Shown piece after piece: positions 4,993 to 45,155 of a DNA stretch of 63,947 nt (position 1 is the first letter of the stretch; each line of letters opens with the position of its first letter). Location: assembly GCA_021650775.1 (NCBI GenBank), contig JAHSRM010000060.1, positions 1 to 63,947 of the forward strand, given 5' to 3'. This DNA comes from Candidatus Benthortus lauensis (GTDB lineage: Archaea > Thermoproteota > Nitrososphaeria_A > Caldarchaeales > Wolframiiraptoraceae). The position numbers and the translations under genes were made by a program. Under the pieces are notes generated by a model. That model was not told the origin of the DNA and searched no databases. It saw only the letters and a program-made list of their open reading frames with translations.

Positions 4993-5051
4993 CCAAGGGT
5001 AAATGAGCTAGGAGACTAAATAAATGAATCCCTGGGTGAACCTTAATTAGG

Positions 5052-30939: not shown

Positions 30940-30951
30940 TTCTAAGCAAAA

Positions 30952-31332: not shown

Positions 31333-31604
31333 TCCTGCTTATCTTGAAGATCGTACCAGCTTTCTTTCTCAATATTCTTTATTCCTTTATTTATCTTAGT
31401 ATCCTACCCCGTTATCATCTACATCTTCCATCCAAGTATCCCAATACATTCCATATTCTCCAGGAGCAATTTTCCAAATTCTATTCTTAATCTTTTTATC
31501 TCTTTTATTAGAAATAGGAAAGTTTGAAATAATTGGAAGCTCATACTTTTTATTCTCTGTTTTTCTTGTTTTGTTTTCTTTTTTAACGCTTGATGCCTAT
31601 CATG

Positions 31605-32132
31605 CTAGAACTTTTTATATTTCTCTAAAATATCGTTAGTCAATTTTTGGGCATTACTACCATTATAACACAAATTAAACCAATTAATAATAGTATCATA
31701 ACTAGTTTCTTTTGGCAATATGTCTATTAAAACATTGGCCTCTAAATTACTCTTAAGAGCTGATTTAGTTAAATTCGATGATCCACATAAAACAGTTATT
31801 CTGTTCTTCTTCTTTGCTATGAAAACCTTTGCATGAAGACCGTCATTACGATAAACTTTGATATTTACTTTCTTAATATTCTTCAAAACTCTTAATGCAT
31901 CTGGCTCTGTAATAGGATTAGTAGTTTGCAATCCGACAATTAGTTTAACTAATGAATTTTTTCTTTTCAAATATCGATTTATCATCTCTTTTAAAAATTC
32001 CGCTCCTTCTCTTTTAACATACGCAATTATTCCATACACTTCTTCAGCATCTTTAAACAATTCATGAAATGCCTCATTAACAGATATAGCATCTTTTTTA
32101 AATTTTGAAGTAAATACCATTTCGTACAGCAA
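31605..32132 (-). CDS. single-HKD phospholipase D-family nuclease (Nuc/NgoFVII/BfiI-like)
   Basis: LHAKVFIAKKKNRITVLCGSSNLTKSAL matches HxK...GSxN. At 175 aa it has one HKD copy, so it would act as a dimer. Confidence 0.75.
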   Translation of the reverse strand: MLYEMVFTSKFKKDAISVNEAFHELFKDAEEVYGIIAYVKREGAEFLKEMINRYLKRKNSLVKLIVGLQTTNPITEPDALRVLKNIKKVNIKVYRNDGLHAKVFIAKKKNRITVLCGSSNLTKSALKSNLEANVLIDILPKETSYDTIINWFNLCYNGSNAQKLTNDILEKYKKF

Positions 32133-32187
32133 TTAAGCTTTTGTAAAATATCTTATAAAAACTTTGCAAAAAGAGTCCAATTTTTAT

Positions 32188-32205
32188 GGTGCGGGGGTGG
32201 GATTT
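32188..32205. repeat. candidate att site (copy of the tRNA-Leu 3' end)
   Basis: GGTGCGGGGGTGGGATTT matches TGTGCGGGGGGTGGGATTT at 44976-44996 (tRNA acceptor/T-arm 3' portion), apart from one G in the G-run. Same orientation. Confidence 0.45.
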
Positions 32206-32270
32206 CCGCCAAAATTTACCAGTATAAGAAGAATAAAATTTATAAATATGTCTGGAGTGGCAGCTACTCG

Positions 32271-33029
32271 TTGCCAATAAATGGTAAAATGCGAGCAGCA
32301 ATTGCAAAGAGATTATATGAACACTTTGCTTGGACAAATAGCTATGGTAAAGAATGGATAACACCGTTACCTTCTAAAATTGAAGAATATTTTGGAGAAC
32401 GATTAATAAGCTATTATCCTTTGCATCCTGAGAAAAAGATTAGAGATTTTGTTTTTGGATGCGAGGAAAAATCTTTACTTGGCTTTTTAGCATATCTCAC
32501 AAAAGATGATCAAAAACTTGAGGAAGAATTAAATGAAGAGCTACAGAAAATTGGGATAAGTCTTTCTCGTGGTCAAGTGATTTCTTCTACAGAGATTGAA
32601 CTTGGATTATTAGAGGAAGAACCTGAGTTACTAGTATATTGGAAAAACTGGGGCTAGGAGAACATGCAAGAATATTAATCAATGGTATATCTGATATGAG
32701 GGAAAAATAAAATATATGAAGCGAACAGTAAAATTTGTTTGTCGTTTGATGGTATACTGAAGAAATTACTTTTAAGGAAAGGGATATCCGTCCCAGATAG
32801 ATGTACGTTAGGTAAGTTAGTTAACCTAGGTCTGGAATCAGGTTTGATAGAACCCGAAATGCGTCCTATCTTTGAAAGTTATGTCTCTCTTAGGAATTTA
32901 CCTCCTCAACATTCCGGCCCCAAGGGAGATATATCAAATGTTTCAAAAACACTAACCTTTGCATTAGCGCACATTAGTAGAGCCCTAATAGGATATTTAA
33001 TTGAACGAATAAAAACAGAATTAGTTTAA
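32271..33029 (+). pseudogene. AbiJ-like protein with C-terminal HEPN domain, split over three reading frames
   Basis: ORFs 32271-32657 and 32739-33029 are bridged by a third-frame piece, ILEKLGLGEHARILINGISDM. The C-terminal piece carries SLRNLPPQH (Rx5H HEPN-type motif). Confidence 0.4.
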
Positions 33030-33149
33030 CAGGCTAGCATTAGCTCATTCAATCTAAGCACTTCTTCTGAGATGTTTTTCTAATCTCCATCTAAGATTCA
33101 ATTTCTTTGAGGAAGAATAAATATAAACGAGACTCTCTGTATTTCCAAT

Positions 33150-34091
33150 AATTTAATTACCTTAGAAGGTATACATCGTGCATGCTGAAGAGATATAATG
33201 TTCCCATAGTTCAAACTATACATAGTCCCCCTCCTATAGATGAAAAATTTTGGCTTGATAATGCAAAGAATTTCGTTGACTTAAATATAGTTCTCAGTAA
33301 TGCGATGAAAAAATGGCTCAAATCAGTAGGTTATCCTGATAATAGAATAATTAAAATACCTGGATTTATAGATTTTGAGTTATTTAATCCAAATATAAAA
33401 ATAAATTTTGAAAAGTTTAACATGATAGGACTGGACATAAATAAAAATAATGATAATTATATTATTTTTTGCCCAGCAAGATTTTCTCCTTCTAAAGGAG
33501 TAGATGTATTACTCAAGGCATTTCGTTTATTGAATATTCAAGATTCAAGTAATGTTAAATTATTGTTAACTGGTAGATTTGCTGGAAGAGAGTTCTTACT
33601 CCCACATTCGCAATATCATATTTCAAAGTATATTGACTATATAAAGCATCTTGTTAAAAAATATAATTTGCAAAAAGTAATTATTAACTACAAAACAGTT
33701 TTTTCCGATAAAGTTAATTTTATTCAGAGAATTCCATATGACATAATGCCTTATCTATATAAAATTTCCGATGTTCTAACGTATCCTTCTCTTCTTAAAC
33801 CACATTTTGAAGCATTTGGATTAGCTTTAATTGAAGCTATGAGAATGGAAATTCCTATTGTTGCAACTAGAAACGGTGGAATGCGTGAGATATTAATAAG
33901 ATGGCATTACCGGTTTACTAGTAAATCCAGGAGATCCTGTTCATTTAGCGAATAAGATCAATCAACTGCTAGAAGATGAATCTTTAAGGAAAAAATTAAT
34001 TTTAAATGCAAAAAGAGAGGTTTTTAAATATGAGGCATCAAGGACTATAAATAACATAATAAACTTATACTATCAACTTAAAGAATTTTAG
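33150..34091 (+). pseudogene. GT4-family glycosyltransferase, N-terminally truncated and frameshifted
   Basis: EAFGLALIEAMRMEIPIVATRNGGMREIL continues in another frame as DGITGLLVNPGDPVHLANKINQLLEDESLRKKL... to the stop at 34089-34091. Most of the N-terminal Rossmann domain is missing. Confidence 0.7.
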
Positions 34092-34687
34092 AGAATTAAC
34101 AACTCATCCATTAAAAATTTCTTCATTGATCTTTTTATTTCCATCTTCTCACTTATCTTTACCTGAAAAACGCGCCAGAACCCGTTACCGATATTTTAAA
34201 TAATATAATATGTTTTAAAAATAGAACATACACTCGAAGCCGATGGATGGACCACGAGTGACTTAAAAATAAATTGACTTTGTTGAAATGGTTATAACTT
34301 AAACCTATAATAAATTTGTTTAACCAAGTTAAAATCAATGATGTCATCATAGGCAGGACAAACAAACTTTCCTATTCTGAAAGGTATATTAATTCTTAAC
34401 GAATGTATCAGCGCTCCACCATAACATTTGAAGCGATTAATGTTAGGTTGGAGTTCCTTTTTGAATTCTTGACTTTTAAGCCGAAAGCCTATAGCTAAGC
34501 TGCTTAACCCGCTTTCTTCAACTCATCTCCCGAAAGGAAGTATGAATATTCTCCAGTTATCTGAAACTCACTCACCAACCACTCATAGAACTGGTCGTCC
34601 TCACTTGACGTGACGACCTGCTCCACAAATTCTTCGATTGGTTTCTCAACTTCAGGCTTAGCCTCCGTTACCGTGAGTTCTTTCTCA

Positions 34688-34810
<123 letters not shown>

Positions 34811-35116
34811 CTACCTGACTTATTAAAAGCAGGAAGCTGATAAAATAGAGTCTCTGACAATAAGATAGGTCAGGACTATGTCTAAAGACCAGCCCGTTTA
34901 CTGTTGCTGGAAGCAAAGTTAAGACGATAGGGGCGTAATCTCGTTTTCAAATAATTTAAAATATAAATGTCATACGAAAAGGTAATGAACAATTATTCTT
35001 CTAATGCTCAATTAGAAGAATTTACAAGAAAACTATCATAGGAAAAGTTTTGGAAATGTTTGGGTTTACTAAGATGTTCTAGGAGATTTTGTATTTGGGG
35101 CGAATTTTTACGTTAC

Positions 35117-35190
35117 GATTACCATAGTATGGTCGTCAAGTATGGATTACCATATGGCAATAACCTATGGTGTTACCATATGGTAACGAT
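35117..35190. repeat. three iteron-like TTACCATA(T)GG repeats, including a perfect 16-bp palindrome
   Basis: GATTACCATAGTATGG (35117-35132), GATTACCATATGG (35145-35157) and the palindrome GTTACCATATGGTAAC (35172-35187). Spacing is 26-28 bp. Confidence 0.6.
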
Positions 35191-35226
35191 ATAGGGCTTT
35201 AGGTGAATAAAAGAATTGCTAAGTAG

Positions 35227-35863
35227 CTACCTCGAGAGTTTTTCACTAATGATTGTTAAGATAATACTAAGTTTGAGGAATTCATGTTTTATTATTGCTG
35301 TGAGCATGGAGAGTATGAAATCTTCCTTTAAAGATCGTTCAATCTCATTTCTATTCTTTATATTTAACAGTGTCTCAGTGAACATCTGTATATACTTTTC
35401 TCCCTCTCTAAAAATGCTTATGGCCTTTTTAGGGTTCTCTCCTACTATAGATGCAATGAATTGTATAGGCGAGACAAACACCAAGTGGTAAAGAAGTTCC
35501 ATCATCTAATCTCACCTTAACACCAAGACCAAATTGAGTGAGTGAACTTACATTCGAGATTTTTAGCTTTAAAATATTTTCAAACTTACTAATAGGAATG
35601 CGATAATACTTCATTAATGTCCCTACAGCAAGTTCTAAGAAAAATCTCTTTCTCTCTACATACCAAGTAAGAAATTGGCTTAACGTAGATCTACGGCGCC
35701 TTAACTCCCTCCTCAATTTATCACGAATTGAAGCCCGAAGCCTGGCTGATATCAAAGGATGCGTGCGTTCATATTTCACTCGAGACGGTGGCTTATGTTT
35801 AGATTTGCGACTCGCAGTTGATCGACGGGAATCTGATTTTGTTTGAAAGACGACATTTTTCAA
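35227..35863 (-). pseudogene. RHH-like DNA-binding protein of unknown function, apparently frameshifted
   Basis: A basic N-terminus with ISARLRASIRDKLRRELRRRRSTLSQFL (RHH-like). ORFs 35429-35863 and 35227-35505 overlap in different frames, as expected for one disrupted gene. Confidence 0.3.
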
Positions 35864-36096
35864 TATATGTCACCTCTATTTGATAAATGATGTCCTTCAA
35901 TAATATGCCAGTGGATTCTATCACCAAAAATTAAGACTCTTACATTCTTTCCTTTAAGCTTCTTCAATTTATTTAGTGTTTTAGGATCTATTTTCACCGT
36001 CAATTTTTCAGTCTTTTTAGCTAACAATAGTATTCCATCACTATCTACCGACAATATAATACCTCTGCCCTCCACAATCTCATTTCTTTCCATCAT
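35860..36096 (-). CDS. hypothetical protein
   Basis: 78-aa ORF. Its stop overlaps the next ORF's TTG start (TTGA). No family recognised. Confidence 0.35.
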   Translation of the reverse strand: MMERNEIVEGRGIILSVDSDGILLLAKKTEKLTVKIDPKTLNKLKKLKGKNVRVLIFGDRIHWHIIEGHHLSNRGDIY

Positions 36097-36144
36097 AAAA
36101 AGATAGAATATTTTACCTATATGAATTCTTTAAGAACAATACAG

Positions 36145-36168
36145 TTCCGGAACTAGTATGTTCCGGAA
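36145..36168. promoter_or_regulatory. twin TTCCGGAA palindromes (candidate operator) in a divergent promoter region
   Basis: GTTCCGGAA at 36144-36152 and 36160-36168, 16 bp centre to centre. They lie between the minus-strand operon (ends at 36096) and the plus-strand gene at 36208. Confidence 0.35.
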
Positions 36169-36207
36169 TAGGTAGTTAACATAAGATATAAAAATAAGAA
36201 CAAATTC

Positions 36208-36624
36208 ATGAAAAATATGCAAAAGCCTAAGTATGTCAGGACAAATATTTTAAGATCGTTGTACGGATATCCTGAAGGACGCAGCTATTCTTCAGTAATT
36301 AGCGAAGTGATAGAAAGATCTAATGTAAGTGAACGGTATATAAGGAAAAGCAAGTCAACATTAATTAGATATGATTATATCGAAGAGTTTTCCAAGAAAA
36401 GAAGAAAGTATCTCAAATTGAAAATGCTTGGTACAGAATTTACTGAATCGACAATGAATCTTGATATAGACCAAGAAATTCATCCTTCGGAGATTAATCT
36501 ATCTAAAGAGGAGATAATCAGAGCTATTAAGGCCGGTCTTCTGAAGATTTCAAAGGATTTGAAGTTGCTGCTTGGTACAATCAATTTTGGAAGGAGACGA
36601 AGAATTTTAAGAAGAACCTCATAA
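36208..36624 (+). CDS. hypothetical protein, possible winged-helix DNA-binding protein
   Basis: ILRSLYGYPEGRSYSSVISEVIERSNVSERYIRKSKSTLIRYDYIE resembles a wHTH. Low certainty. Confidence 0.4.
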   Translation: MKNMQKPKYVRTNILRSLYGYPEGRSYSSVISEVIERSNVSERYIRKSKSTLIRYDYIEEFSKKRRKYLKLKMLGTEFTESTMNLDIDQEIHPSEINLSKEEIIRAIKAGLLKISKDLKLLLGTINFGRRRRILRRTS

Positions 36625-36805
36625 ACCTCTTAATAAATTAAAACATGTATGTGACATTTAGAATACTATACCTGTTCTCGTCACAACAAGGAACATATAA
36701 AGGAGGTTGAATTATGATACATGGGACTCTTCACGAAGTAGCATCAGCATTTAGGATAGTAAGTATAGAGAAAATGAAGGTGAAATTCTTGTGAGGGAAT
36801 GATAT

Positions 36806-37015
36806 TCATCTTGAATTTAGTAGTCTTCTTTTGAATGATGTTATTGTTATTCCTGCGGGTTCTCCCTTACTGTCCAAGTCTACTATGATGCCTTCCTCTA
36901 TCTCTACTCCCTCGGCTGCTTCCCGGTCTCCGAAGTGTATGTATAGTGTGTCTGCTTCCTCGTCGTAGTGGATGTACGCGCCGCTTATCCTAAGCTTTCT
37001 CAGGGCTTCCTCCAA
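36806..37015 (-). CDS. DUF2283-family protein (putative antitoxin)
   Basis: YIHYDEEADTLYIHFGD...GIIVDLDSKGEPAGITI is the characteristic DUF2283 pattern. Confidence 0.7.
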   Translation of the reverse strand: MEEALRKLRISGAYIHYDEEADTLYIHFGDREAAEGVEIEEGIIVDLDSKGEPAGITITSFKRRLLNSR

Positions 37016-37338
37016 ACCACCCTCCTCCTCTTCTCCAACTTTTCTACGTCTTTTGTGGGGTACGCGGTGATTATAAATCCTTCCCTGTTAAGCGGCCTGT
37101 ACACGACAACGAGGTATGCTCCTCCGAGAAGGTCTTTAAACCATCGTATGGTCAGCAGCTCTCCGAGGCGGCCCTCCAAGACCATCTCAGGCTCCTCCAA
37201 AGTTTCCACTATCTTAGGACGATGCTCATGAAGCCAGGGTCTCTTGGCGAGGATATGTCTCCAGCTGCCTAGACCAAGCCTGATACGCCTCCCACGGAAA
37301 TCATAGGCCTCGAGAACTACACCCGACCCATTGCTCAA
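37000..37338 (-). CDS. DUF4258-like putative toxin
   Basis: WRHILAKRPWLHEHRPKIVETLEEPEMV...YLVVVY...GFIITAYP. Overlaps the DUF2283 gene by 16 nt. The only plausible start is a TTG at 37338, which overlaps the recombinase remnant's stop. The upstream part of the track ORF is an alternate frame of that remnant. Confidence 0.4.
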   Translation of the reverse strand: MSNGSGVVLEAYDFRGRRIRLGLGSWRHILAKRPWLHEHRPKIVETLEEPEMVLEGRLGELLTIRWFKDLLGGAYLVVVYRPLNREGFIITAYPTKDVEKLEKRRRVVWRKP

Positions 37339-38100
37339 ACTATCCCCAGCTTCGGGATGTATGCTTGATAAGCTTTCCTCAGCTCCTCCGGATCTATGTG
37401 GTCGTAGATGTCTATCGCCTCCCCCCTCCTGCCCCCTCTTAGTTCTTTTATGAACTCCCGTGGCATTCCATTCCTCCTGAGCCAGGTTGTGAACCAATGC
37501 CGGAGACCATGTGGCTAATCCTTAATCCAAGTTTTGACGAGTGCTTCACAATAACATTAATATCATGTTTCTGTTTATTCGCTTCTTGCTCTCATAATTT
37601 GTGAACAGCGCTTTAGTTCGCGGTCTCAGTTGCTCTCTGATCTAAGCACCTTTCAAGAACTAACGCAGCTTCATCGTCAAAAACCCTCGATTACTTCTCT
37701 TTTGCGTCTTCTCAAGATATTTTGCAGCTCTCCCAATCAATATTATCTATATCAAGTCTAATGAGCTTGCTTCTTCTAATTTCCGTTTTCCCAGCAAGAC
37801 TATTATCACCCATTCTCTAGGATCCAACGTCGAGCTAACCATCCTAGCAGGCTCTTCAATCTACTCTTCTTCGCTCTTACATCTCCTAGATAGCACGTTG
37901 TTCATTGGAACTTTCTCCTCATAGGCTAGGTAATCGTAAAACGTGGACAGCGCCGAAAATAATTCTCAAGAGTCTTATGCCTCACCTTCTTCTCAGAAGC
38001 TCTATCAGCTCATGATTAAACCTCATAACATCCTCGAAGCGAGGTTCTGGAAATCGCTGAGCCCTATACCTCTGAAGAAGCTTTTCCCAAGACTATCGAC
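37335..38100 (-). pseudogene. tyrosine recombinase (XerC/D-like integrase) remnant A
   Basis: Multiple stops and frameshifts. Recognisable pieces are LENYFSALSTFYDYLAYEEKVP, IIVLLGKTEIRRSKLIRLDIDNIDWE and an in-frame C-terminus HGLRHWFTTWLRRNGMPREFIKELRGGRRGEAIDIYDH. Clear nucleotide similarity to 43475-44406. Confidence 0.7.
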
Positions 38101-38102
38101 TA

Positions 38103-41100
38103 TTAACGTGATTTTAATATTCTTTCTTTAGCTAAATGTTCAATTTCTTGACTATCTATACTTCCATCAGGTCTCTCTTTGGATACTATTAATTGTTTAT
38201 AATAGCCGTTTTCTTTATACCATCGCTCTTTTCTTTTCCAGTCTTTAATATAATCTGGATCATTTAACATGCCAAGATGTTCCCAGTAAAACGTTTTTCC
38301 TTGATACTTTATAGTAAAATCTGGTAACCGATAATCCAACGGATCATTTTTAGAATAAAGTGGTTTCTCATATTCATAACTTATGCCTAAATCAGCTAAA
38401 ATGTTTGCTATAATTACCTCCGATTTAGATCTAACCAATTCTCCTTTCCTTGTTACATGTTTTAATTGTTCTGGTTTGAACGGCTCTTTACAAATTTTCA
38501 ATTTAAATAGATTTGTATTTCTCTTAAGAGTTTGAGAATATTGTAGATTTCTATATGTCAGTAAAGGAAGTATATCTTTTTCAATAAGTAGAATTATTTT
38601 TCTTCTGAACCTAGTTAATCCCGTATATAGTAGTTCTGTTGATAGCGTTGATGTTTTCTGTGGTACGATAAAAATTACTACATCAAAATCACTTCCTTGT
38701 GATTTATGGACTGTAATAGCATATGCTAATTCGAGGTTTTCGTCTATCACATTTTTCCCATAATATCTAAATCTTATGTTCGGATGCGTTGAAAATTCTA
38801 CTTCTAAGAATTTTTTCTCTTTATTAAGTTTAACTACTCTGCCAATTTCTCCATTCGCTACATAGTCAGAATATTGTCCATTTCCATTTATTATCTGAAC
38901 CTGTTTTTCTTTTCCTTTGGTTCTCTTGTTAATAATTTGTATAACTTTATCAGTATACATTATTTGTTGTTCTCCTAAATATTTTCTCTGCATAAATAAT
39001 CCTCTATTATACTTTTCTTGAATAATACGGTTTATTTCTGTTGTTCCAAAGAAATGTAATCTTGTAGGTGAAATAATCTGCCAATTTTCAGGATTCTTAA
39101 GTGATTCATTAAATCTTTGATATAAGGGTTCACCGTTTTTCTTTTCATATAAGATGTTCATTATATTCTTTTCTAATATTTCATAAAGTTCTTTTTCATC
39201 ATTCCAAAAATATACTTCTAACTCTTTAGATGTAGACCTTTTTGCAATTTTGGAAAGTATCTCATCATCTCCAGGAGAACCCTTTTCCCTTAAGAAGAAA
39301 TCAGCTAATTTTAGAGCATCGGAACCCTCATGACGAACACGCTGGGTTAAGCAAATAACATGTTCTTTCCCATTTTCTTCTAGATAATCTATAATATCTA
39401 TAAAGGGTCTGCCAGGCCCTATCGGAGGTAGTTGATTAGGATCTCCTACAAGGACCAGTCGTTTAATATAATTAAAGTCAAGAGCTCTAAATAATGTGGC
39501 TAGAAGATCTATGGGAATCATGGAAGCCTCATCTATAATTACATTTTCATATACTCCTTTACTTCCGCCCTCATTCTTTAGAGAGTATGTTTCTTCTCTT
39601 ATCCATCCTTGTTTCATTAAGAATTCATGAATAGTTAATGCTTTTCTTCCTGTAATAGATTGTAATCTGACTCTTGCTTTTCCAGTAGGAGCTAACAGTA
39701 ATAATGAAGTTTTCCCCTCTAATTCTTCAAGCCCCTTTATGAATGGTTTGAGAACAGTGGTCTTTCCAGTACCTGCTCTTCCCATTATTACAGATAAACG
39801 ATTTGAGAAAAGCGCTCTTAATGCTTCTATTTTTTCTTGACGCGCTTTATCTTCTAATGATTTATTTTCCAGCCTCTTAACATTCCTCAGTTCATTTTCT
39901 ATTAATTTTTTAAGTGTATGGTCAGAAGGTTCATCGTATTTCCCTTTAAGAAGATTCTTAATACGACCTTCAACCTCTTTTTCCATATCATAAAGAGATT
40001 TTAATGCGATAAACTTTGGATTATTTCTAGGGATAAAAACCAATTGCTCTTCATAAAATTTACGATTATGTAAAATAATATCTAAATCAAGCTCAAATAA
40101 TCGATTTTTAGGTAATCTTCTTTTTATTCTTTTAAAAGCTTCATAAACTGATATACAAGTATGTCCTTCTGTTGATGCTTCTTTTAATATTTGAACTAAT
40201 AACGCTCTTACTCTGCGCTCATCATCTTTGTCTATATACTCAAAATCAATTTTTTTAAAATTAGAAGCCAGTTTTTCATTTAATATCATACCCCTATCAA
40301 TGGTCTCGAAGTCTGTAGGAGGGGAATCACTATCTCCATCATCTAACTCTGAAATTATGTAGGGGTTTTCTATTAATTCCCTTTCTGTAGCATCTATGAA
40401 TGCTTCTTTACGTTTTTCTCGGTTAGACACCCTCTTTATTTGTTCAGGCGACAATGCAAAGCGGCATAATATCTTTAGTAGTTCTTTTCTTATTTTTGGA
40501 AGCTTCTTCCATTTTCTCATAGCTTTCTTATAATTTTCATAATACTTTTTTGGGATTCTTTTTCTCTTTCCATCAAGGATTGAGAAAACATAATGATGAA
40601 TATTCATTCCTTTAGATTCTAAGCTAGTTAGTTCCATACGATGATAAATAACGCCATTCTCAAAGCCTAAGGCTTCTAAAACACTACCAACTCCAGGGAA
40701 AACGCCACGATTCTTCCATACTTCCTCCAATACTTTATTTAACCACTTCAATCTATATTGCCACGATTTGCCATAAGGCTCTTTTATCTTATTATCTTTT
40801 ACTATAGTTTCTATAGACTGAATTGCTCTTTCAATTATTCCAACAGCAGTATCATCTGTCACATGTTCTGCAACATACGAAAACTGCCTTTTAGCTGAAG
40901 CTGGAATATAACAAATTATTTCTGATACATCATATCCATTTTTAATGTATTCTTGATATGGTAAACGAACTCCCTGTTCAGGAAAGCTATGAGTTATACA
41001 CCTAGACCATACAGGATAATTTTCTTTATATCCGGATTTCTTCCCAAAAAATTTTTGTCTACCTATATGAGATACGCGGCTTATTCCAATTAATATTCTC

Positions 41101-41576
41101 TTTTTTCTATCTTCTTCTAAAGGATTAGCGTAATTAACATAAAAGAATATGAGTGACTTGCTTGGAACTATCTCCTGCCAAAAATTTTTTAGTTTCTCTA
41201 ATTGAATTTTTGGATCACTTATCCAAGTTTCTCCTTGGTCCTCGCTAAGCATCCTCTCATATGGAGCTGTACAAAATGAATAAGGAGGGAGTTCTTCTTC
41301 AACTGGTGGTAAATTCCTCCATTCCAAAGGATCTTTATGAAGTATTGTAAAACCTTTAGAAGAGAATGTTGCTATATCTCTTGAACAAGGAGGAAGCTCA
41401 TTGAGTTTAAGCTTACTTACATGTTTTTTGGAATTCGTACATTCTACATCCTCATTCCTTTCTTCCCTTATATGTTCATGCATTACACAAGAAACATTTA
41501 ACTTAGGATTATCACAGATGCATCCGTCCCATCCCCGGTCATGCCATACAAGACGCGCTGATAGGTGGAGCGGCAT
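38103..41576 (-). CDS. 1157-aa fusion protein: unassigned Cys/His-rich N-terminal domain, RecD-like SF1B helicase and C-terminal PD-(D/E)xK-like nuclease
   Basis: Helicase motifs: GRAGTGKTT (aa 599-607, about nt 39756-39782), VIIDEASM, LVLVGDPNQLPP, AYAITVHKSQGSDFD and LLYTGLTRFRRK. C-terminal nuclease-like segment: RSKSEVIIANIL..YEYE..RLPDF...YWEHLG. N-terminus: LVWHDRGWDGCICDNPKLNVSCVMHEH. Confidence 0.85.
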   Translation of the reverse strand: MPLHLSARLVWHDRGWDGCICDNPKLNVSCVMHEHIREERNEDVECTNSKKHVSKLKLNELPPCSRDIATFSSKGFTILHKDPLEWRNLPPVEEELPPYSFCTAPYERMLSEDQGETWISDPKIQLEKLKNFWQEIVPSKSLIFFYVNYANPLEEDRKKRILIGISRVSHIGRQKFFGKKSGYKENYPVWSRCITHSFPEQGVRLPYQEYIKNGYDVSEIICYIPASAKRQFSYVAEHVTDDTAVGIIERAIQSIETIVKDNKIKEPYGKSWQYRLKWLNKVLEEVWKNRGVFPGVGSVLEALGFENGVIYHRMELTSLESKGMNIHHYVFSILDGKRKRIPKKYYENYKKAMRKWKKLPKIRKELLKILCRFALSPEQIKRVSNREKRKEAFIDATERELIENPYIISELDDGDSDSPPTDFETIDRGMILNEKLASNFKKIDFEYIDKDDERRVRALLVQILKEASTEGHTCISVYEAFKRIKRRLPKNRLFELDLDIILHNRKFYEEQLVFIPRNNPKFIALKSLYDMEKEVEGRIKNLLKGKYDEPSDHTLKKLIENELRNVKRLENKSLEDKARQEKIEALRALFSNRLSVIMGRAGTGKTTVLKPFIKGLEELEGKTSLLLLAPTGKARVRLQSITGRKALTIHEFLMKQGWIREETYSLKNEGGSKGVYENVIIDEASMIPIDLLATLFRALDFNYIKRLVLVGDPNQLPPIGPGRPFIDIIDYLEENGKEHVICLTQRVRHEGSDALKLADFFLREKGSPGDDEILSKIAKRSTSKELEVYFWNDEKELYEILEKNIMNILYEKKNGEPLYQRFNESLKNPENWQIISPTRLHFFGTTEINRIIQEKYNRGLFMQRKYLGEQQIMYTDKVIQIINKRTKGKEKQVQIINGNGQYSDYVANGEIGRVVKLNKEKKFLEVEFSTHPNIRFRYYGKNVIDENLELAYAITVHKSQGSDFDVVIFIVPQKTSTLSTELLYTGLTRFRRKIILLIEKDILPLLTYRNLQYSQTLKRNTNLFKLKICKEPFKPEQLKHVTRKGELVRSKSEVIIANILADLGISYEYEKPLYSKNDPLDYRLPDFTIKYQGKTFYWEHLGMLNDPDYIKDWKRKERWYKENGYYKQLIVSKERPDGSIDSQEIEHLAKERILKSR

Positions 41577-41587
41577 TATATTGTTTT

Positions 41588-41593
41588 ACCTCC
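41588..41593 (-). promoter_or_regulatory. Shine-Dalgarno-like GGAGGT upstream of the 1157-aa gene
   Basis: The minus strand reads TTAGGAGGTAAAACAATATA-ATG. An A/T-rich TTAAAAAC lies about 25 nt further upstream. Confidence 0.35.
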
Positions 41594-41813
41594 TAATAGT
41601 TTTTAAGGCTTTCTTTGTACAACCGCTTCTAAGAAAGATAAACACATGAAATAAGCTGAGCTACGGATACATGAAACATTCCATAAGGTGGCATTAGCGT
41701 TTAGGATAGTGGATATAAAGAAAATCTTAAAGTTCTATGAACATAAGAAGCAGGTAAAAGGTGTGGATGTTGTCAGACATCAACTTTATTAATCATTAGT
41801 TGGGTTCCTTATT

Positions 41814-42002
41814 TTGATGGGTGAGGTTTCGGAGATACTTGGTGAGATTCGGGAGGAGCTGAGGGAGCTTAGACTACTCTATAAAGAGCTTGTTGAGAGG
41901 CTTATTCCCGTCGAGGAGCCCGAACCAGATGAAAAGAAAGCAATAAAGGAGGAAGACGAAATCGTCGGCGAAGAAGAGTTGTTCAGGGTTTTGGGCGACT
42001 AG
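41814..42002 (+). CDS. putative antitoxin (acidic small protein) of the RelE module
   Basis: 62-aa acidic ORF ending 3 nt before the RelE-family gene. Confidence 0.5.
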   Translation: MMGEVSEILGEIREELRELRLLYKELVERLIPVEEPEPDEKKAIKEEDEIVGEEELFRVLGD

Positions 42003-42005
42003 GAT

Positions 42006-42266
42006 TTGTTTAGGCTTGAGATCAATCGTAAGGCCCTGAAAGCCCTCGAGAAGCTGGATGAGAAGAGGAGGAAGAGGTTTACCGATGTCTTCTCTATATT
42101 GAAGGAGGATCCCGTCCCCTTCAGGAAGCTTAATGTGGCTAAACTTCGTGGATATGAGAGCACCTATCGTATAAGGATCGGCGACCTAAGACTCGTATAT
42201 ACTGTTTATTGGGCTGAGAGAAGAATACTAATACACTTCATAGGAACAAGAAGAAAAGCGTATTGA
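42006..42266 (+). CDS. relE: type II toxin, RelE/ParE family
   Basis: KLRGYESTYRIRIGDLRLVYTVYWAERRILIHFIGTRRKAY, a typical RelE C-terminal core. Confidence 0.85.
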   Translation: MFRLEINRKALKALEKLDEKRRKRFTDVFSILKEDPVPFRKLNVAKLRGYESTYRIRIGDLRLVYTVYWAERRILIHFIGTRRKAY

Positions 42267-42316
42267 TTTTATGACAATAATGGTATAGCTATAAATTGTT
42301 ATGCTTGCCAAAAATA

Positions 42317-42916
42317 TTATTCTTCACCCATTGTTGCGCTAACCCGACATATATACTCCATCTTTTTCCTGAACCTTTCACGTAGATCACTATTTGTTGG
42401 ACATCTAAGACTAGATACATAATTTTCAAATTCTTTAACTAGCTGACTATGAAACAATCTACGGTTTATAATGAGCCCTTTTCCGTCTTCAGTAAAGCTG
42501 ACAAGTGGGGTTCCTTCCCGTATAATTACACGAGAACTTCCTTTAACCTCAGCTTGATGCAGAATACCGCATCGGATTTGGTCATAAAAAATTTTGGCTT
42601 TCTTTTCATCGAAAAATTCTTTAAAAGAGCTCTCCGTTAAGAAGCGGACAAAATATTCTTTTGATCTTCCGTGCGGAGTTTGTTCTACTCCTTCTCGAAA
42701 CTGTTGAAGTGTCTCAATAAGCAAACAGTCAAGTGCTAAGACTGCAAAGCCAGAATATGTCTGATTTTGAATGCGGTCTATAATATCTAAGAAGCGCCCT
42801 CTAATACGATCCTCGAAAATATCTATTGCCTTCTGCCACCCCTCTTCTTTTGAAAAGTCTATTCTTCGCCAATCCTCCGTTGTATAATGAGGTGAAATAC
42901 GCATCACATTTATCAC
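42317..42916 (-). CDS. hypothetical protein with a possible HEPN-type Rx4H motif
   Basis: Predicted mostly helical. FYDQIRCGILHQAE places R115-x4-H120 (nt 42557-42574). No other family motif recognised. Confidence 0.35.
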   Translation of the reverse strand: MINVMRISPHYTTEDWRRIDFSKEEGWQKAIDIFEDRIRGRFLDIIDRIQNQTYSGFAVLALDCLLIETLQQFREGVEQTPHGRSKEYFVRFLTESSFKEFFDEKKAKIFYDQIRCGILHQAEVKGSSRVIIREGTPLVSFTEDGKGLIINRRLFHSQLVKEFENYVSSLRCPTNSDLRERFRKKMEYICRVSATMGEE

Positions 42917-42977
42917 ATCTTTAGGATATAAATATTATTAAGCTAATAAGCTTTTCTATAGAAGTGGAGCTGTGGGT

Positions 42978-43445
42978 ATGGGCCGGATTTGGTATTTTTC
43001 CTATGGTAGGAATATGAATTCTAGTAAATTGTATGAAAGAATAAAAAGAAAACCTTTCAGTATATATAGAGGAAGATTGCTGAATTATAAACTCATCTTT
43101 GGCAAGGTTCCGGGTCCTAAACTAGGTACAGGATACGCAACTATTGTTCCAAGTCCAAAAGAATCGGTAGAAGGAGTATTATACTTACTTAACGGTCAGG
43201 ACTTAGAAGTATTGGATAAATATGAAGGCGTGGAAACGGGTAACTACATCAGATGTAAAGTAGAGGTTCTAAATTTAGATTTAAACATTATTGTAAAAGC
43301 TTACACATACATAGCTGTTAAAGTGGACGAAAATCTGAAACCTCCAAGAGAATATTTAGCCGAGTTAATAGAGTCTTCTAAGAGGATGTCTCTAACTAAT
43401 GACTGGATAATTAAACTAGAAAATCTAATGAAAGATTCCTTATAA
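42978..43445 (+). CDS. gamma-glutamylcyclotransferase (GGCT/AIG2-like) family protein
   Basis: The YFSYGRNMNSSKL N-terminal motif (YGSNL-type), VEGVLYLL and LDKYEGVETGNYIR (catalytic Glu context). Confidence 0.75.
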   Translation: MGRIWYFSYGRNMNSSKLYERIKRKPFSIYRGRLLNYKLIFGKVPGPKLGTGYATIVPSPKESVEGVLYLLNGQDLEVLDKYEGVETGNYIRCKVEVLNLDLNIIVKAYTYIAVKVDENLKPPREYLAELIESSKRMSLTNDWIIKLENLMKDSL

Positions 43446-43474
43446 AATCCTTTTCTCCACCAGTCTGGAGAATA

Positions 43475-44406
43475 TTATTCTATTCTTAGTTTTGGTATTG
43501 ATGCTAAGTATGCTTTTCTTAGCTCTTCTTCGTCTATGTGGTCGTAGATGCCTACCGCCTCTTTTTTCGGCCTCCTCTTAGCTCTTTAATGAATTCTCGG
43601 GGCATCTTATTTCTCCTAAGCCATGTAGTGAACCAGTGCCTCAGATCGTGGGGGACTTATTCTCAGACCAAGCCTGGATGAGTGCTTGACAACCACATTG
43701 AAGATTGTGTTTCTGTCTATTCGCTTCTTGCTTGCATAGTTTATGAAAAGGGCTTTGGTTTCTGGTTTGAGTATTGCTCTTGCTTTGAGCCATCTTCTGA
43801 GAACTATTGCTGTCTCGTCGTCGAAGAATACTATTCGGTTGCTCCGCTTCGGCTTCTTCAGGATGATCCTATATTTTCCCAGTCGATGTCATCTACGTCG
43901 AGTCTTATCAGCTCACCCCTCCTTATCCCTGTCTTTGCCAATAGGACTATTATCGCCCTATCCCACGGCTCTAGAACCGAGTTAACTATCCTGCTAAGCT
44001 CCTCAACGCTTAGAAGCCTCCTAACATGCTGCTCCTCATCACCCTTATACCTCCTGAGATAACGTTTCCTAAATGGTAAGATATAATTTGCTGGAACTAT
44101 CCCCTCATAGGCAAGATAATCATAGAATGTTGATAGTGCTGAGAAATAATTCTCTAAGGTCTTGTGACTAATCCTCCTCTTAAATCTAAGATATCTCAAG
44201 AAATTTCTAAGAACTTCCTTATCTACATTAAGCAGGCTTAATCCATCGGCTTTCAGGTATTCTATAAAGATTCTAATCGCCGATATATACTTCCTTATGC
44301 TCTCCCCGTTCATCTCCTTGAGTACGCAGTCCTTCCTGAAGTCTTGTATAATCCTCTCAGAATCAATCTTCCTGATCCTCAGCTGCTTTAGCCTCTCCAT
44401 CTCCAA
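43475..44406 (-). pseudogene. tyrosine recombinase (XerC/D-like integrase) B, at least three frameshifts
   Basis: The N-terminal 182 aa are intact (SAM-like domain, AKTGIRRGEL). The rest continues in other frames as RIILKKPKRSNRIVFFDDETAIVLRRWL..., then HDLRHWFTTWLRRNKMPREFIKELRGGRKK, then EAVGIYDHIDEEELRKAY... to the stop at 43475-43477. Confidence 0.75.
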
Positions 44407-44926
44407 CCCTTCCTAGGAAACTCGATCAGTCCGTAGTCCTCGAGAATCTCGAATCTCGAGCTGCCTTGAGATCGCCTTCACGTATTCCGTCTCGGATGGA
44501 TCGACACCAAGCCTGTCGAGGATTTCCTCTTCGCTGAACGATTCACCTGTCTTCAGAAGTTCTATTAGTTCTCTATCGAATCTTCGAATGCCCTCAAAGT
44601 GTGGCTCTAGAAATGGTTGAGCTCTGTATCTTCTGAGTTCGCGTTCAAGATTCTCGACAAGTTTTTCTTAGCATCCTGTTTTCTTCACGAAGTCTTTTAA
44701 CCTCATCATCGAATTCTTTCAACTTCTTAATCAATTCAAGTCTACTCTCGAATCTGTGGTTTTCGCTCTTCCTGATATAATCCTCAACAATCTCAAAGAC
44801 AAACTTCGATAATGATTTCTTCGCTAACGCCGCATGCCTCCTCCATTCCTCAACAAACTCCTCACTCGGAAGATAAACGTAGACGGTTCTCTCCTTGATG
44901 GTCTCAGTCTTCCTCCGCCCAACCAT
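44388..44926 (-). pseudogene. RHH / coiled-coil / wHTH regulator, frameshifted
   Basis: VYVYLPSEEFVEEWRRHAALAKKSLSKFV (RHH). The frame breaks at an A5 run (...NRMLRK|LVENLERELRRY...) and again at a 7-bp tandem duplication, GAATCTC x2 (44444-44457), before ...LEILEDYGLIEFPRKGW. Confidence 0.5.
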
Positions 44927-44970
44927 CCCAACGGTATCAAAAGGTATTACCCTTTACATAGTTTACCGGT

Positions 44971-44975
44971 AAAAA
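44971..44975 (-). terminator. T5 tract immediately 3' of tRNA-Leu
   Basis: The minus strand reads ...GCA-CA-TTTTT-ACC directly after the discriminator base. Oligo-T is the usual archaeal termination signal. Confidence 0.3.
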
Positions 44976-44977
44976 TG

Positions 44978-45084
44978 TGCGGGGGGTGGGATTTGAACCC
45001 ACGAACCCCTATGGGACAGGGGTTCTCATCCCTTTTTTTGGGATCCTGAGCCCTGCGCCTTTGGCCAGGCTTGGCTACCCCCGC
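44978..45084 (-). tRNA. tRNA-Leu(CAG) with a 22-nt intron
   Basis: Hand-folded. Acceptor stem GCGGGGG/CCCCCGC, A73, anticodon stem CAGGG/CCCTG, loop CUCAGG, long variable arm UCCCAUAGGGGUUC, and T-arm GUGGG-UUCAAAU-CCCAC. The intron ATCCCAAAAAAAGGGATGAGAA (45023-45044) follows position 37. Confidence 0.85.
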
Positions 45085-45155
45085 TTTTTGTTCTGTTTTT
45101 GTTTCTTGTGGGGCTGGTTTTTAAGTTTAAGGGTTGGGGTTCCGTGGTTTGGGTT

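What the first reader, a model, noticed from the sequence alone, without database searches (positions are those of the whole stretch)
42317..43445. Divergent pair: possible HEPN (Rx4H) protein and a gamma-glutamylcyclotransferase-family protein
Two intact genes share a 55-60 bp AT-rich divergent promoter region inside the island. The 199-aa protein looks helical and carries IRCGILHQ (R115-x4-H120), a HEPN-RNase-like motif. The 155-aa partner has the GGCT/AIG2 hallmarks (YFSYGRNM..., LDKYEGVETGNY). GGCT-fold enzymes cleave gamma-glutamyl or related amide linkages. I do not know of an established toxin-antitoxin or defence module that pairs this fold with a putative RNase. The pair sits between a RelE module and a dead integrase, which is typical defence-island context.
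Basis: partly seen in the sequence, partly recalled or inferred. Interest (0 to 1): 0.7.

Follow-up and report, generated by a model that had tools for sequence, protein, structure and literature searches.

The report
Unknown protein partnered with glutamyl cyclotransferase
A highly conserved protein family absent from the domain and structure databases searched is repeatedly found next to, or fused with, a gamma-glutamyl cyclotransferase enzyme in mobile and defence-rich DNA of bacteria and archaea, which points to an undescribed two-part module; its function is not established and the suggested HEPN RNase identity could not be confirmed.

Summary
Both genes are real and intact. "X" is at 42317..42904/42916 (-), 195-199 aa. 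The GGCT gene is at 42972/42978..43445 (+), 155-157 aa. They diverge from a 55-73 bp, 70-75% A+T spacer inside a low-GC island, between a RelE/ParE pair and a frameshifted integrase.

The partner is a C7orf24-type gamma-glutamyl cyclotransferase with its catalytic Glu intact. X has no hit in Pfam, NCBIfam, PADLOC or PDB sequences, yet the family is large (2429 clusters at 50% identity).

The pairing is not chance. Of 71 assessable distinct loci, 34 carry a GGCT-fold gene adjacent to or fused with X. Fusions occur in both domain orders. Three partner types were seen: canonical, window-type divergent, and ChaC-like. ChaC-like pairs sit inside BREX or split-pglX loci.

The HEPN fold is not supported. 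A confident AF2 model (pLDDT 90.5) has no significant Foldseek match, and the best HEPN hit has E=7.3.

Best reading: a new, horizontally mobile module, probably conflict-related, with X as the constant part and the GGCT-fold enzyme as the catalytic output. The mechanism is inferred.

The parts
42317..42916 (-). Gene X: an uncharacterised alpha+beta protein. It is 199 aa from GTG 42916, and most likely 195 aa from ATG 42904.
   Evidence: ORF. There are 587 homologues at 56-77% identity, and P0001 is the 195-aa form. The family has 2429 clusters at 50% identity. No Pfam, NCBIfam or PADLOC hit. AF2 model has pLDDT 90.5.
42557..42574 (-). Codons for R115-C-G-I-L-H120 (R111..H116 in the 195-aa form), the invariant R-x4-H motif of family X.
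   Evidence: Sequence read. R111 and H116 are invariant in 108/108 diverse members. The residue after R is C in 84, N in 23 and D in 1.
42905..42977 (.). Divergent intergenic spacer. It is 73 bp between the likely ATG starts and 55 bp (42917..42971) between the maximal ORFs. It contains TATA-like ATATAAATATT and a block (TAAG...ATAAGCTTT) shared with the two closest relatives.
   Evidence: A+T is 70-75%. Its function as a promoter is inferred, not shown.
42972..43445 (+). C7orf24/AIG2_2-type gamma-glutamyl cyclotransferase gene. It is 157 aa from GTG 42972, and most likely 155 aa from ATG 42978.
   Evidence: Pfam AIG2_2 4.8e-13 and GGACT 5e-12. P0268 is 155 aa. The partner-family profile, which includes this sequence, matches human GGCT 2pn7 at E=8e-29.
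43224..43226 (+). Codon of the predicted catalytic Glu (E83 of the 155-aa form, in LDKYE).
   Evidence: This Glu is invariant in the partner alignment A3. It aligns with the Glu of human GGCT's LDEQE; that this is E98, the catalytic residue, is from my knowledge of Oakley et al. 2008.
43453..43472 (+). Terminator-like hairpin followed by a T-rich tail, just after the GGCT stop codon.
   Evidence: Consensus scan only. The count is not above shuffles (2 found against a mean of 0.9, sd 1.1), so this is weak evidence.

Best explanation
X and the GGCT gene form a conserved, horizontally mobile two-component module. In other organisms the same module is made as one fused protein.

Shown:
(1) The GGCT partner is a C7orf24-type gamma-glutamyl cyclotransferase that keeps its catalytic Glu.
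(2) X belongs to a large family with no database annotation. Its only invariant residues are R37, R115 and H120 in 199-aa numbering. R41, E68, W27, K185 and M186 are nearly invariant.
(3) About half of X genes have a GGCT-fold gene directly adjacent or fused. At least three partner types were seen.
(4) Many loci lie in integrated elements, plasmids, defence islands or BREX operons.

Inferred mechanism: X is the constant component. Its Arg/Arg/His(+Glu) site probably binds, or cleaves, a phosphate-bearing ligand such as nucleic acid or a nucleotide. X works in physical contact with the GGCT-fold enzyme, which is the interchangeable catalytic output. That enzyme destroys a gamma-glutamyl-linked molecule by cyclising it to 5-oxoproline. 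Candidate substrates are a gamma-glutamyl thiol or peptide, or a gamma-glutamyl-tagged signal.

The module most likely serves in genetic conflict, as phage or mobile-element defence of the abortive-infection or metabolite-depletion type, rather than in core metabolism. It is not a classical type II toxin-antitoxin pair, and X is not demonstrably a HEPN domain.
For: Co-occurrence:
- Among 81 distinct X sequences from the fetched loci, 25 have a canonical or window-type GGCT and 9 have a ChaC-like protein, adjacent or fused. 34 have none and 10 could not be assessed.
- The usual arrangement is X then GGCT on the same strand, with gaps from -4 to about 40 nt.

Fusions:
- X-N/GGCT-C: P0117, P0123, P0125, P0138, P0147, P0163, P0185 and P0193 (Pfam AIG2_2/GGACT), plus P0247 (by sequence inspection only).
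- GGCT-N/X-C: P0211 (by sequence inspection only).
- X fused to the ChaC-like domain: P0124, P0132, P0190.

Three partner types:
- The window GGCT is only 27-36% identical to the canonical partners.
- The divergent arrangement recurs in the two nearest relatives, L010 and L099.
- The 'ILAYGSL' partner model (pLDDT 95.9) has human ChaC2 as its top five Foldseek hits, though weakly: E 0.08-0.5, probability 0.21-0.72. Two homologues are named ChaC by JGI.

Active enzyme: the partner profile matches human GGCT at E=8e-29, including the YGSN and LD..E motifs.

X conservation.

Conflict context:
- The window island also carries a PDC-S68 helicase, RelE/ParE and a PLD nuclease.
- L062: BrxC | X | ChaC-like | PglXI.
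- L045/L025/L055/L022 (and L048, where only PglX-N was scored): PglX-N | wHTH | X | ChaC-like | PglX-C.
- L100: integrase | X | ChaC-like | type III MTase | ResIII.
- L074: X | GGCT | HmaC.
- L077/80/81: GmrSD-SLFN | X | SIR2_2 (L080/81; a 251-aa unscanned ORF in L077). L084: nSTAND3-Mrr.
- Plasmid pAoF64/95: QueC-like, XRE and a Lit-family exclusion protein nearby.
- L093: EVE | X | GGCT.

Host side rather than phage side: no hit in 50,697 phage records and only 2 in IMG/VR.
Against: - No function has been tested for either protein.
- Most neighbours of X are housekeeping genes. Some insertions are tightly embedded in metabolic or repair operons: etfB|X|GGCT|etfA with 3-nt and overlapping junctions, and recR|X|recO. 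That looks more like a resident accessory enzyme than a defence cassette.
- About half of X genes have no GGCT-fold neighbour. All plasmid homologues examined are solo. X must therefore be able to act alone, or with a partner encoded elsewhere.
- X is much more conserved across phyla (55-77% identity) than defence sensors usually are.
- Neither protein hits PADLOC, including its candidate PDC models.
- In the window the genes are divergent, so co-regulation is assumed rather than shown.
- In two of the three members of the window's own clade the GGCT is a pseudogene.
Confidence: 0.5

Rival explanations
1. X is a HEPN-superfamily, metal-independent RNase that acts as toxin or effector through R115-x4-H120. 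The GGCT-fold protein is its regulator or antitoxin, analogous to MNT in HEPN-MNT pairs.
For: - R-x4-H is invariant in 108/108 members. In 23/108 the motif reads R-N-x3-H, the classical HEPN form.
- Invariant or near-invariant Arg and Glu residues on the first two long helices would suit a metal-independent RNase site.
- X is largely helical.
- X is found in defence islands.
Against: - No Pfam HEPN family is hit by any of 108 members. PDB profile searches are empty.
- Foldseek on a pLDDT-90 model gives no HEPN hit better than E=7.3 with TM 0.21-0.25.
- In the model, R sits at the end of one helix and H in a six-residue helix that is followed by a beta-hairpin. A HEPN motif would be expected at the start of a long fourth helix.
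- X is solo and intact in about half of loci, and it survives decay of the GGCT gene. That is hard to reconcile with a constitutive toxin neutralised by GGCT.
Confidence: 0.2
2. A toxin-immunity pair with the roles reversed. The GGCT-fold enzyme is the toxin, depleting an essential gamma-glutamyl compound. X is its antitoxin or immunity protein.
For: - X is the upstream gene in the canonical operons, which is the usual antitoxin position.
- Orphan X genes are common. In L010 and L099 the GGCT has decayed while X is intact, the usual pattern of toxin loss with antitoxin retention.
- From my own knowledge, GGCT-fold enzymes are used as toxic effectors elsewhere. An example is the ChaC-like RipAY of Ralstonia, which degrades glutathione.
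Against: - Fusions of the two domains in both orders are atypical for toxin-antitoxin pairs.
- X is more conserved than its partner and has an enzyme-like invariant R/R/H set. Antitoxins usually evolve faster than toxins.
- No DNA-binding domain was detected in X.
- Partner-type proteins also occur without X: P0269 and L103.
Confidence: 0.12
3. An accessory metabolic or damage-control pathway. X and GGCT catalyse consecutive steps on a gamma-glutamyl-containing metabolite or xenobiotic. The gene pair spreads by horizontal transfer because it is useful, not because it is a weapon.
For: - Fusion in both orders is typical of consecutive enzymes.
- The cassette is tightly embedded in an acyl-CoA dehydrogenase/ETF operon in several related contigs. 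A second, unrelated X lies next to an ETF-alpha gene in L059.
- Most neighbours are housekeeping genes.
- A subclade has X adjacent to a PEP-synthase-regulator-like kinase/pyrophosphorylase.
Against: - No conserved third metabolic gene, transporter or regulator accompanies the pair.
- The only recurrent wider association is with BREX/pglX and other restriction or defence genes.
- The family is found in integrated elements and plasmids and has a patchy phylogenetic distribution.
Confidence: 0.15
4. Chance adjacency of two unrelated island genes in this window.
For: - In the window the genes are divergent, and this GGCT is only 27-36% identical to the usual partners.
- Its one close intact homologue, P0269, has no X upstream.
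Against: - The same divergent arrangement occurs in L010 and L099.
- 34 of 71 assessable loci have a GGCT-fold partner, and there are many fusions.
Confidence: 0.02

Closest known systems
HEPN-MNT (type VII) toxin-antitoxin pairs and single-protein HEPN abortive-infection RNases
   Same: - A small, mostly helical protein with an invariant R-x4-H, read as R-N-x3-H in about a fifth of members.
- It is paired with an enzyme rather than a DNA-binding antitoxin.
- It occurs in defence islands.
   Different: - No sequence-profile or structural match to any HEPN family or structure.
- The motif sits at a helix-break-short-helix junction before a beta-hairpin.
- The partner is a GGCT-fold cyclotransferase, not a nucleotidyltransferase.
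- The two domains are frequently fused, and X is often solo.
C7orf24-type gamma-glutamyl cyclotransferase (human GGCT, PDB 2pn7) and ChaC-family glutathione-specific cyclotransferases (human ChaC2, 6k95)
   Same: - The window's partner protein and the canonical partners match human GGCT over the full length (E=8e-29), with the YG.N and LD..E motifs.
- The alternative 'ILAYGSL' partner has ChaC2 as its closest fold, weakly.
   Different: - The known enzymes are stand-alone housekeeping or stress enzymes of the gamma-glutamyl cycle.
- Here the enzyme is tied to, or fused with, an unknown domain, lies in mobile DNA, and occurs in lineages in which (from my own knowledge) many members are not known to make glutathione.
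- The window copy has YGR instead of YGS.
- The ChaC-like partner carries an extra C-terminal helical domain of about 100 aa.
Accessory modules embedded in BREX loci (for example the GmrSD-type BrxU), cited from my own knowledge
   Same: X plus ChaC-like pairs sit between brxC and pglXI (L062), or between the two halves of a split pglX (L045, L025, L055, L022, and L048 for the N-half). This is the kind of position where extra defence genes are found in BREX islands.
   Different: - Neither protein resembles a known BREX accessory.
- The window itself has no BREX genes.
- A role in BREX has not been shown.
Metabolite-depleting defence effectors (SIR2/TIR NAD+ depletion in Thoeris and DSR; dCTP deaminase and dGTPase), cited from my own knowledge
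   Same: The proposed logic is the same: a constant partner controls an enzyme that destroys an essential small molecule. One X subclade is followed by a SIR2_2 gene instead of GGCT (L080/81).
   Different: The substrate class (gamma-glutamyl amides) and the enzyme fold have not been reported for any defence system I know of or could find. Depletion has not been demonstrated.

Membership tests
HEPN superfamily | Conserved R-x4-6-H motif | tested here: met
   R115-x4-H120 is invariant in 108/108 diverse members. The second residue is C (84), N (23) or D (1).
HEPN superfamily | Sequence-profile relationship to a described HEPN family | tested here: not met
   The window protein has no Pfam, NCBIfam or PADLOC hit at E<=1. 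None of 108 members hits a HEPN Pfam model. PDB profile searches return only spurious hits.
HEPN superfamily | Four-helix up-down bundle with the motif at the start of helix 4, and structural similarity to solved HEPN domains | tested here: inconclusive
   The AF2 model has pLDDT 90.5 and pTM 0.86. Foldseek against PDB gives nothing at E<0.9. The HEPN toxin 7ae8_D is at rank 45 (E=7.3, TM 0.21/0.25) and 1ylm at rank 50 (TM 0.29/0.34). Coordinates could not be inspected, and Foldseek is weak on helical bundles, so the fold is unsupported rather than excluded.
HEPN superfamily | Metal-independent RNase activity | not testable with these tools
   Needs biochemistry.
GGCT / AIG2_2 (C7orf24-like gamma-glutamyl cyclotransferase) | Profile match above the curated threshold | tested here: met
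   AIG2_2 scores 49.8 bits against a cut-off of 27. GGACT scores 46.9 bits against 22.8. The partner-family profile matches human GGCT 2pn7 at E=8e-29 over residues 17-164.
GGCT / AIG2_2 (C7orf24-like gamma-glutamyl cyclotransferase) | N-terminal YGS(N) substrate-binding motif and catalytic Glu (human E98) | tested here: met
   The Glu (E83, LDKYE) is invariant in A3 and aligns with the Glu of human LDEQE. The motif in the window is Y-G-R-N, with S changed to R. This position also varies in other partners, for example A in L003.
GGCT / AIG2_2 (C7orf24-like gamma-glutamyl cyclotransferase) | Gamma-glutamyl cyclotransferase activity, and substrate identity | not testable with these tools
   Needs enzyme assays.
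Type II toxin-antitoxin system | Two small co-transcribed genes with a short gap or overlap | tested here: not met
   In the window the genes are divergent. In most relatives they are co-directional with gaps from -4 to about 40 nt, so the feature is met in relatives only.
Type II toxin-antitoxin system | Antitoxin with a DNA-binding domain, or a match to a known toxin or antitoxin family | tested here: not met
   Neither protein has an HTH, RHH or AbrB domain, and neither hits a TA model.
Type II toxin-antitoxin system | Toxicity of one gene that is neutralised by the other | not testable with these tools
   Needs expression assays.
Catalogued anti-phage defence systems (PADLOC-DB 2.0.0, including PDC candidates) | Match of either protein to a system model | tested here: not met
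   No families for X or GGCT at E<=1. The neighbouring 1157-aa helicase hits PDC-S68 at E=0.
BREX-associated accessory genes | Location within a BREX operon | tested here: not met
   There are no BREX genes near the window pair. The feature is met for the ChaC-like subclade in L062, L045, L025, L055 and L022.

The most novel reading that the evidence does not exclude
X plus a GGCT-fold enzyme is a previously unrecognised class of prokaryotic immune or conflict module whose output chemistry is cleavage of a gamma-glutamyl bond. The target could be gamma-glutamyl thiols or peptides, or a gamma-glutamyl-linked signal or tag. X would be a new fold that senses or cuts nucleic acid through an invariant Arg/Arg/His site. 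In one lineage the module has become an integral insert of BREX, splitting pglX into two genes.
Probability: 0.3. Interest if true: 0.85.

Novelty: categorically new. Interest (0 to 1): 0.68.

Why it matters
- X is a large family (more than 2400 clusters at 50% identity) found in bacteria and archaea. It has no hit in Pfam, NCBIfam, PADLOC or PDB sequences, and no significant fold match.
- Gene fusion, gene neighbourhood and repeated partner replacement all tie X to gamma-glutamyl cyclotransferase chemistry. I could not find that enzyme class reported in any toxin-antitoxin or anti-phage system.
- If the module is defensive, it would add a new effector chemistry and a new domain to prokaryotic immunity. 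It might also explain the extra genes inside some BREX and pglX loci.
- If the module is metabolic, it would define an unknown step upstream or downstream of 5-oxoproline formation.
- Either way the hypothesis is directly testable with two small soluble proteins and a handful of point mutants.

Tried and rejected
- **Family scans of X.** Pfam, NCBIfam and PADLOC scans of the window protein, and a Pfam scan of 108 family members, gave nothing consistent.
- **PDB sequence-profile searches.** Two alignments returned only spurious hits: a cytochrome c555 'CG..HQA' motif and a lethal factor fragment.
- **Foldseek on the X model.** Nothing significant against PDB or BFVD. Scattered low-probability hits to minigluzincin, SprT and IrrE metallopeptidases were considered. 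I rejected them because X has no HExxH, and its H..E/H152 positions are not invariant. An HNH reading (H120...N151...H156 in 199-aa numbering; H116/N147/H152 in the 195-aa form) was rejected for the same reason and because the spacing is wrong.
- **Genome-contig scan.** The metagenome scan with an alignment made up for this.
- **hhalign, canonical GGCT partners against 'ILAYGSL' partners.** No similarity was detected. The link to the GGCT fold rests on weak Foldseek ChaC2 hits, motif resemblance and two JGI names.
- **Homologue search with the window GGCT.** It found only one relative, and that one has no X beside it.
- **att repeat search.** No repeat of 14 nt or more was found between the tRNA end and the rest of the island.
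- **Promoter and terminator scans.** Counts were no better than shuffles.
- **Host identification.** Cluster look-up returned no names.
- **Literature.** Ten searches found no description of the pair. One archaeal island paper mentions a GGCT, but in a different gene context.
Full report
**1. What is in the window**

The two ORFs exist as described. X is at 42317..42916 (-), 199 aa from a GTG. The protein database holds the 195-aa form starting at ATG 42904 (P0001). The partner is at 42972..43445 (+), 157 aa from a GTG, or 155 aa from ATG 42978 (P0268).

The spacer is 55 bp at 75% A+T between the maximal ORFs, or 73 bp at 70% A+T between the ATGs. The motif R-C-G-I-L-H is encoded at 42557..42574 on the minus strand.

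The pair lies in a 14-kb stretch of 30-43% GC (about 30.9-45.0 kb), in a sequence that is otherwise 52-62% GC. The island's other contents are:
- a weak EVE-like ORF and a PLD/NgoFVII-type nuclease;
- a glycosyltransferase fragment;
- a 1157-aa RecD-like helicase that matches PADLOC candidate PDC-S68 at E=0;
- a ParE/RelE-family toxin with a small upstream gene;
- an integrase broken by several frameshifts and stops;
- an intron-containing tRNA at 44978..45084 (-).

**2. The GGCT partner**

Pfam AIG2_2 (4.8e-13) and GGACT (5e-12) both score above their gathering cut-offs. I aligned the window protein with twelve X-linked partners from other loci. A profile of that alignment matches human gamma-glutamyl cyclotransferase (C7orf24, PDB 2pn7) at E=8e-29 over residues 17-164. 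The match includes the YFAYGSN motif and the LD..E motif.

The Glu of LD..E is the catalytic E98 of the human enzyme (my knowledge of Oakley et al. 2008). It is invariant in the alignment and corresponds to window E83, codon 43224..43226. The window copy reads YGRN rather than YGSN, but that Ser position also varies in other partners. The partner is therefore very probably an active cyclotransferase of the C7orf24 type.

**3. Protein X**

X has no hit in Pfam, NCBIfam or PADLOC at E<=1. A word-indexed search found 587 homologues, nearly all 190-210 aa and unnamed. They are 56-77% identical to X, and the few that carry source names come from Deltaproteobacteria, Zixibacteria, Acidobacteriota and Promethearchaeota MAGs. 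An exhaustive profile search found 2429 clusters at 50% identity with E<=1e-3, of which 1291 had E<=1e-10.

In 108 diverse representatives only R33, R111 and H116 are invariant. Nearly invariant are W23, R37, G52, F53, E64, G72, Y162, K181 and M182 (195-aa numbering). The motif is [IFV]-R-[CN]-G-[IL]-L-H-Q-A-[EQ]-T-K, with N after the Arg in 23 of 108.

None of the 108 members hits a HEPN model or any other consistent Pfam family. PDB sequence-profile searches are empty.

AlphaFold2 with 37 sequences gives a confident model (pLDDT 90.5, pTM 0.86). Its elements, in order, are:
- two long helices (20-45 and 52-71);
- helices 81-96 and 100-111, then a short helix 114-119;
- a three-stranded hairpin region (125-147);
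- two long helices (148-167 and 172-192).

R111 ends one helix and H116 lies in the six-residue helix that precedes the beta element. Foldseek finds nothing significant in the PDB: the best hit has E=0.97 and every TM score is below 0.35. The best HEPN chain, 7ae8_D, is at rank 45 with E=7.3. In BFVD the best hit is an unnamed 170-aa viral protein at E=0.21, probability 0.77.

I conclude that the HEPN motif is present but the HEPN fold is unsupported. Without coordinates I cannot exclude a HEPN core interrupted by a hairpin.

**4. The pairing is real**

The first hint was P0117, a 349-aa protein with X at the N-terminus and AIG2_2/GGACT at the C-terminus.

Fusion evidence from the profile search, taking ten long representatives:
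- seven are X-GGCT fusions by Pfam;
- three carry X fused to a 220-aa 'ILAYGSL' domain;
- separately, P0211 has the reverse order, GGCT then X, by sequence inspection only.

I fetched 80 metagenomic loci with an alignment query, plus loci from other look-ups, and scored neighbours by tblastn and blastp. Among 81 distinct X sequences:

| Partner status | Count |
|---|---|
| C7orf24-type GGCT adjacent or fused | 25 |
| 'ILAYGSL' protein adjacent or fused | 9 |
| Kinase/pyrophosphorylase (PF03618) directly downstream | 3 |
| No partner found (4 of these with short upstream flank) | 34 |
| Contig too short to assess | 10 |

So 34 of 71 assessable loci (48%) have a GGCT-fold partner. GGCT-fold genes are a tiny fraction of any genome (my knowledge), so chance cannot explain this.

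The usual layout is X then GGCT on one strand, with gaps from -4 to about 40 nt. All-against-all clustering of 148 neighbouring proteins found no further universally conserved gene.

**5. Three partner types**

On a neighbour-joining tree of X, partner-bearing and solo leaves are interleaved.

- *Window clade.* The window groups with L010 and L099 (76-77% identical X). All three have the divergent arrangement and the same distinct GGCT type, which is only 27-36% identical to the canonical partners. Their sister is L093, where the order is EVE-domain gene | X | GGCT, all co-directional.
- *Decay in the window clade.* In L010 and L099 the GGCT is frameshifted or truncated to about 55-66 codons while X remains intact. 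The only close intact homologue of the window GGCT (P0269, 59%) has no X upstream.
- *'ILAYGSL' partners.* These form one region of the X tree. The family has 583 homologues, two of which JGI names ChaC. Its AF2 model (pLDDT 95.9) has human ChaC2 as its five best Foldseek hits, though weakly: E 0.08-0.5, probability 0.21-0.72, TM 0.31-0.48. It shares the YGSL and L..RE motifs of the fold. A profile-profile comparison with the canonical partners was negative.

The repeated appearance of different GGCT-fold proteins next to the same X family is the strongest argument that the cyclotransferase chemistry itself is what X needs.

**6. Genomic contexts**

Contexts with mobile or defence character:
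- P0057: X next to an integrase and HTH genes.
- L100-102: integrase | X-like (hhalign probability 100%) | ChaC-like | type III methyltransferase | ResIII helicase.
- L062: BrxC/PglY | X | ChaC-like | PglXI.
- L045, with the same in L025, L055 and L022 (and the N-half only in L048): a protein matching PglX profile positions 7-684 of 1332, then a wHTH protein, X, ChaC-like, and a protein matching PglX positions 694-1290. The cassette therefore sits inside a split pglX.
- L074: X | GGCT | HmaC/DUF499.
- L077/80/81: GmrSD-Schlafen | X | SIR2_2 (L080/81; a 251-aa unscanned ORF in L077). L084: nSTAND3-Mrr.
- Plasmids of Rhizobium, Agrobacterium, the Bacillus cereus group and Synechocystis carry solo X at 26-41% identity. 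On pAoF64/95 it lies beside QueC-like, XRE and Lit-family exclusion genes.

X is absent from 50,697 phage records and almost absent from IMG/VR, with 2 loci.

Contexts that argue the other way:
- etfB | X | GGCT | etfA with 3-nt and overlapping junctions.
- recR | X | recO.
- Most neighbours in the 148-protein census are housekeeping genes. The census shows 7 PglX/type IIG methylases, 3 SIR2 (PADLOC), 3 Schlafen and 2 GmrSD.

**7. How it most likely works**

Shown: the module exists. The partner keeps a cyclotransferase active site. X keeps an Arg/Arg/His (+Glu) set.

Inferred:
- Fusion in both orders means the two domains act together on one target or in one complex.
- X is the constant element and the GGCT-fold enzyme the replaceable catalytic output.
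- The invariant basic and His residues suggest a phosphate-bearing ligand, nucleic acid or nucleotide, that is bound or cleaved.
- The context suggests genetic conflict rather than core metabolism.

I put this at about 0.5. The rivals are:
- a reversed toxin-immunity pair, with GGCT as toxin and X as antitoxin, which fits the orphan X genes and GGCT decay but not the fusions or X's enzyme-like conservation (0.12);
- an accessory two-step metabolic pathway, which fits the ETF-operon insertion (0.15);
- chance (0.02).

**8. Comparison with known systems and novelty**

X fails the sequence and structure tests for HEPN membership while meeting the motif test. The partner passes the GGCT tests.

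The pair fails the type II TA architecture test in the window, where the genes are divergent and there is no DNA-binding antitoxin. It matches no PADLOC model. Ten literature searches found no description of a GGCT-fold enzyme in a TA or anti-phage system, or of this pairing.

I therefore rate the module as categorically new in composition. The caveat is that its biological role is unproven.

Noticed in passing
L045 1258-7256 (also L025, L055, L022; N-half only in L048): A pglX (BREX/type IIG methyltransferase) gene is split at about profile position 690 of 1332 into two intact ORFs. Three co-directional genes lie between the halves: a wHTH protein with a possible PD-(D/E)xK domain, X, and the ChaC-like protein. 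The arrangement is conserved across loci whose ChaC-like proteins are only 43-55% identical.
   Followed up: partly
L062 181-7937; L100-L102 3336-8648: X plus ChaC-like pairs lie between BrxC/PglY (DUF6079) and PglXI, which resembles type 3 BREX. They also lie between an integrase and a type III methyltransferase plus ResIII helicase.
   Followed up: partly
window 38103-41576 (-): A 1157-aa RecD2-like SF1 helicase with long N- and C-terminal extensions matches the PADLOC candidate defence family PDC-S68 at E=0. It is the largest gene of the island.
   Followed up: no
window 30900-45100: A 14-kb low-GC island (30-43% against 52-62%) ends at an intron-containing tRNA (44978..45084, -), which ARAGORN missed but Rfam found. 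Next to it is a multiply frameshifted tyrosine integrase (about 43460-44406, -). No att direct repeat of 14 nt or more was found.
   Followed up: partly
window 30952-31332 (-) and 31605-32132 (-): The left end of the island carries a weak EVE-like ORF (E=5.9e-4, below the Pfam cut-off) and a PLD/NgoFVII-type nuclease domain protein. An EVE-domain gene also directly precedes X-GGCT in L093.
   Followed up: no
L010 3662-3921 (-); L099 1622-1819 (-): In the two closest relatives of the window pair, the divergent GGCT gene is frameshifted or truncated to about 55-66 codons while X stays full length.
   Followed up: yes
L003-L006, L014 (X 5001-5615 and GGCT 5629-6093 in L003): The X-GGCT cassette lies between etfB and a ferredoxin-fused etfA inside an acyl-CoA dehydrogenase operon. 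The junctions are 3 nt and overlapping, so the cassette appears to be co-transcribed with metabolic genes. An unrelated solo X (L059) also lies next to an ETF-alpha gene.
   Followed up: partly
L001 6618-7469; L002 2514-3365; L064 4595-5461: In one X subclade (C-terminus ...TACEII) the gene directly downstream is a PF03618 kinase/pyrophosphorylase, similar to the PEP synthase regulatory protein, instead of GGCT. I could not tell whether this is functional or inherited synteny.
   Followed up: no
L080 4631-6292; L081 2726-4387: X is followed 76 nt downstream on the same strand by a SIR2_2-domain protein and preceded by a GmrSD_N + Schlafen/AlbA_2 protein. This may be another effector pairing for X.
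   Followed up: no
X model against BFVD: The best structural neighbour of X anywhere is an unnamed 170-aa viral protein, UniProt A0A0H4TI24 (E=0.21, probability 0.77, TM 0.39/0.44). Its identity could not be looked up.
   Followed up: no
window 37000-37497 (-): A 165-aa ORF lies in the one 1-kb bin of the island core with raised GC (47% in 37001-38000, against 29-36% in the neighbouring bins). It has no Pfam hit and may be a remnant of different origin.
   Followed up: no
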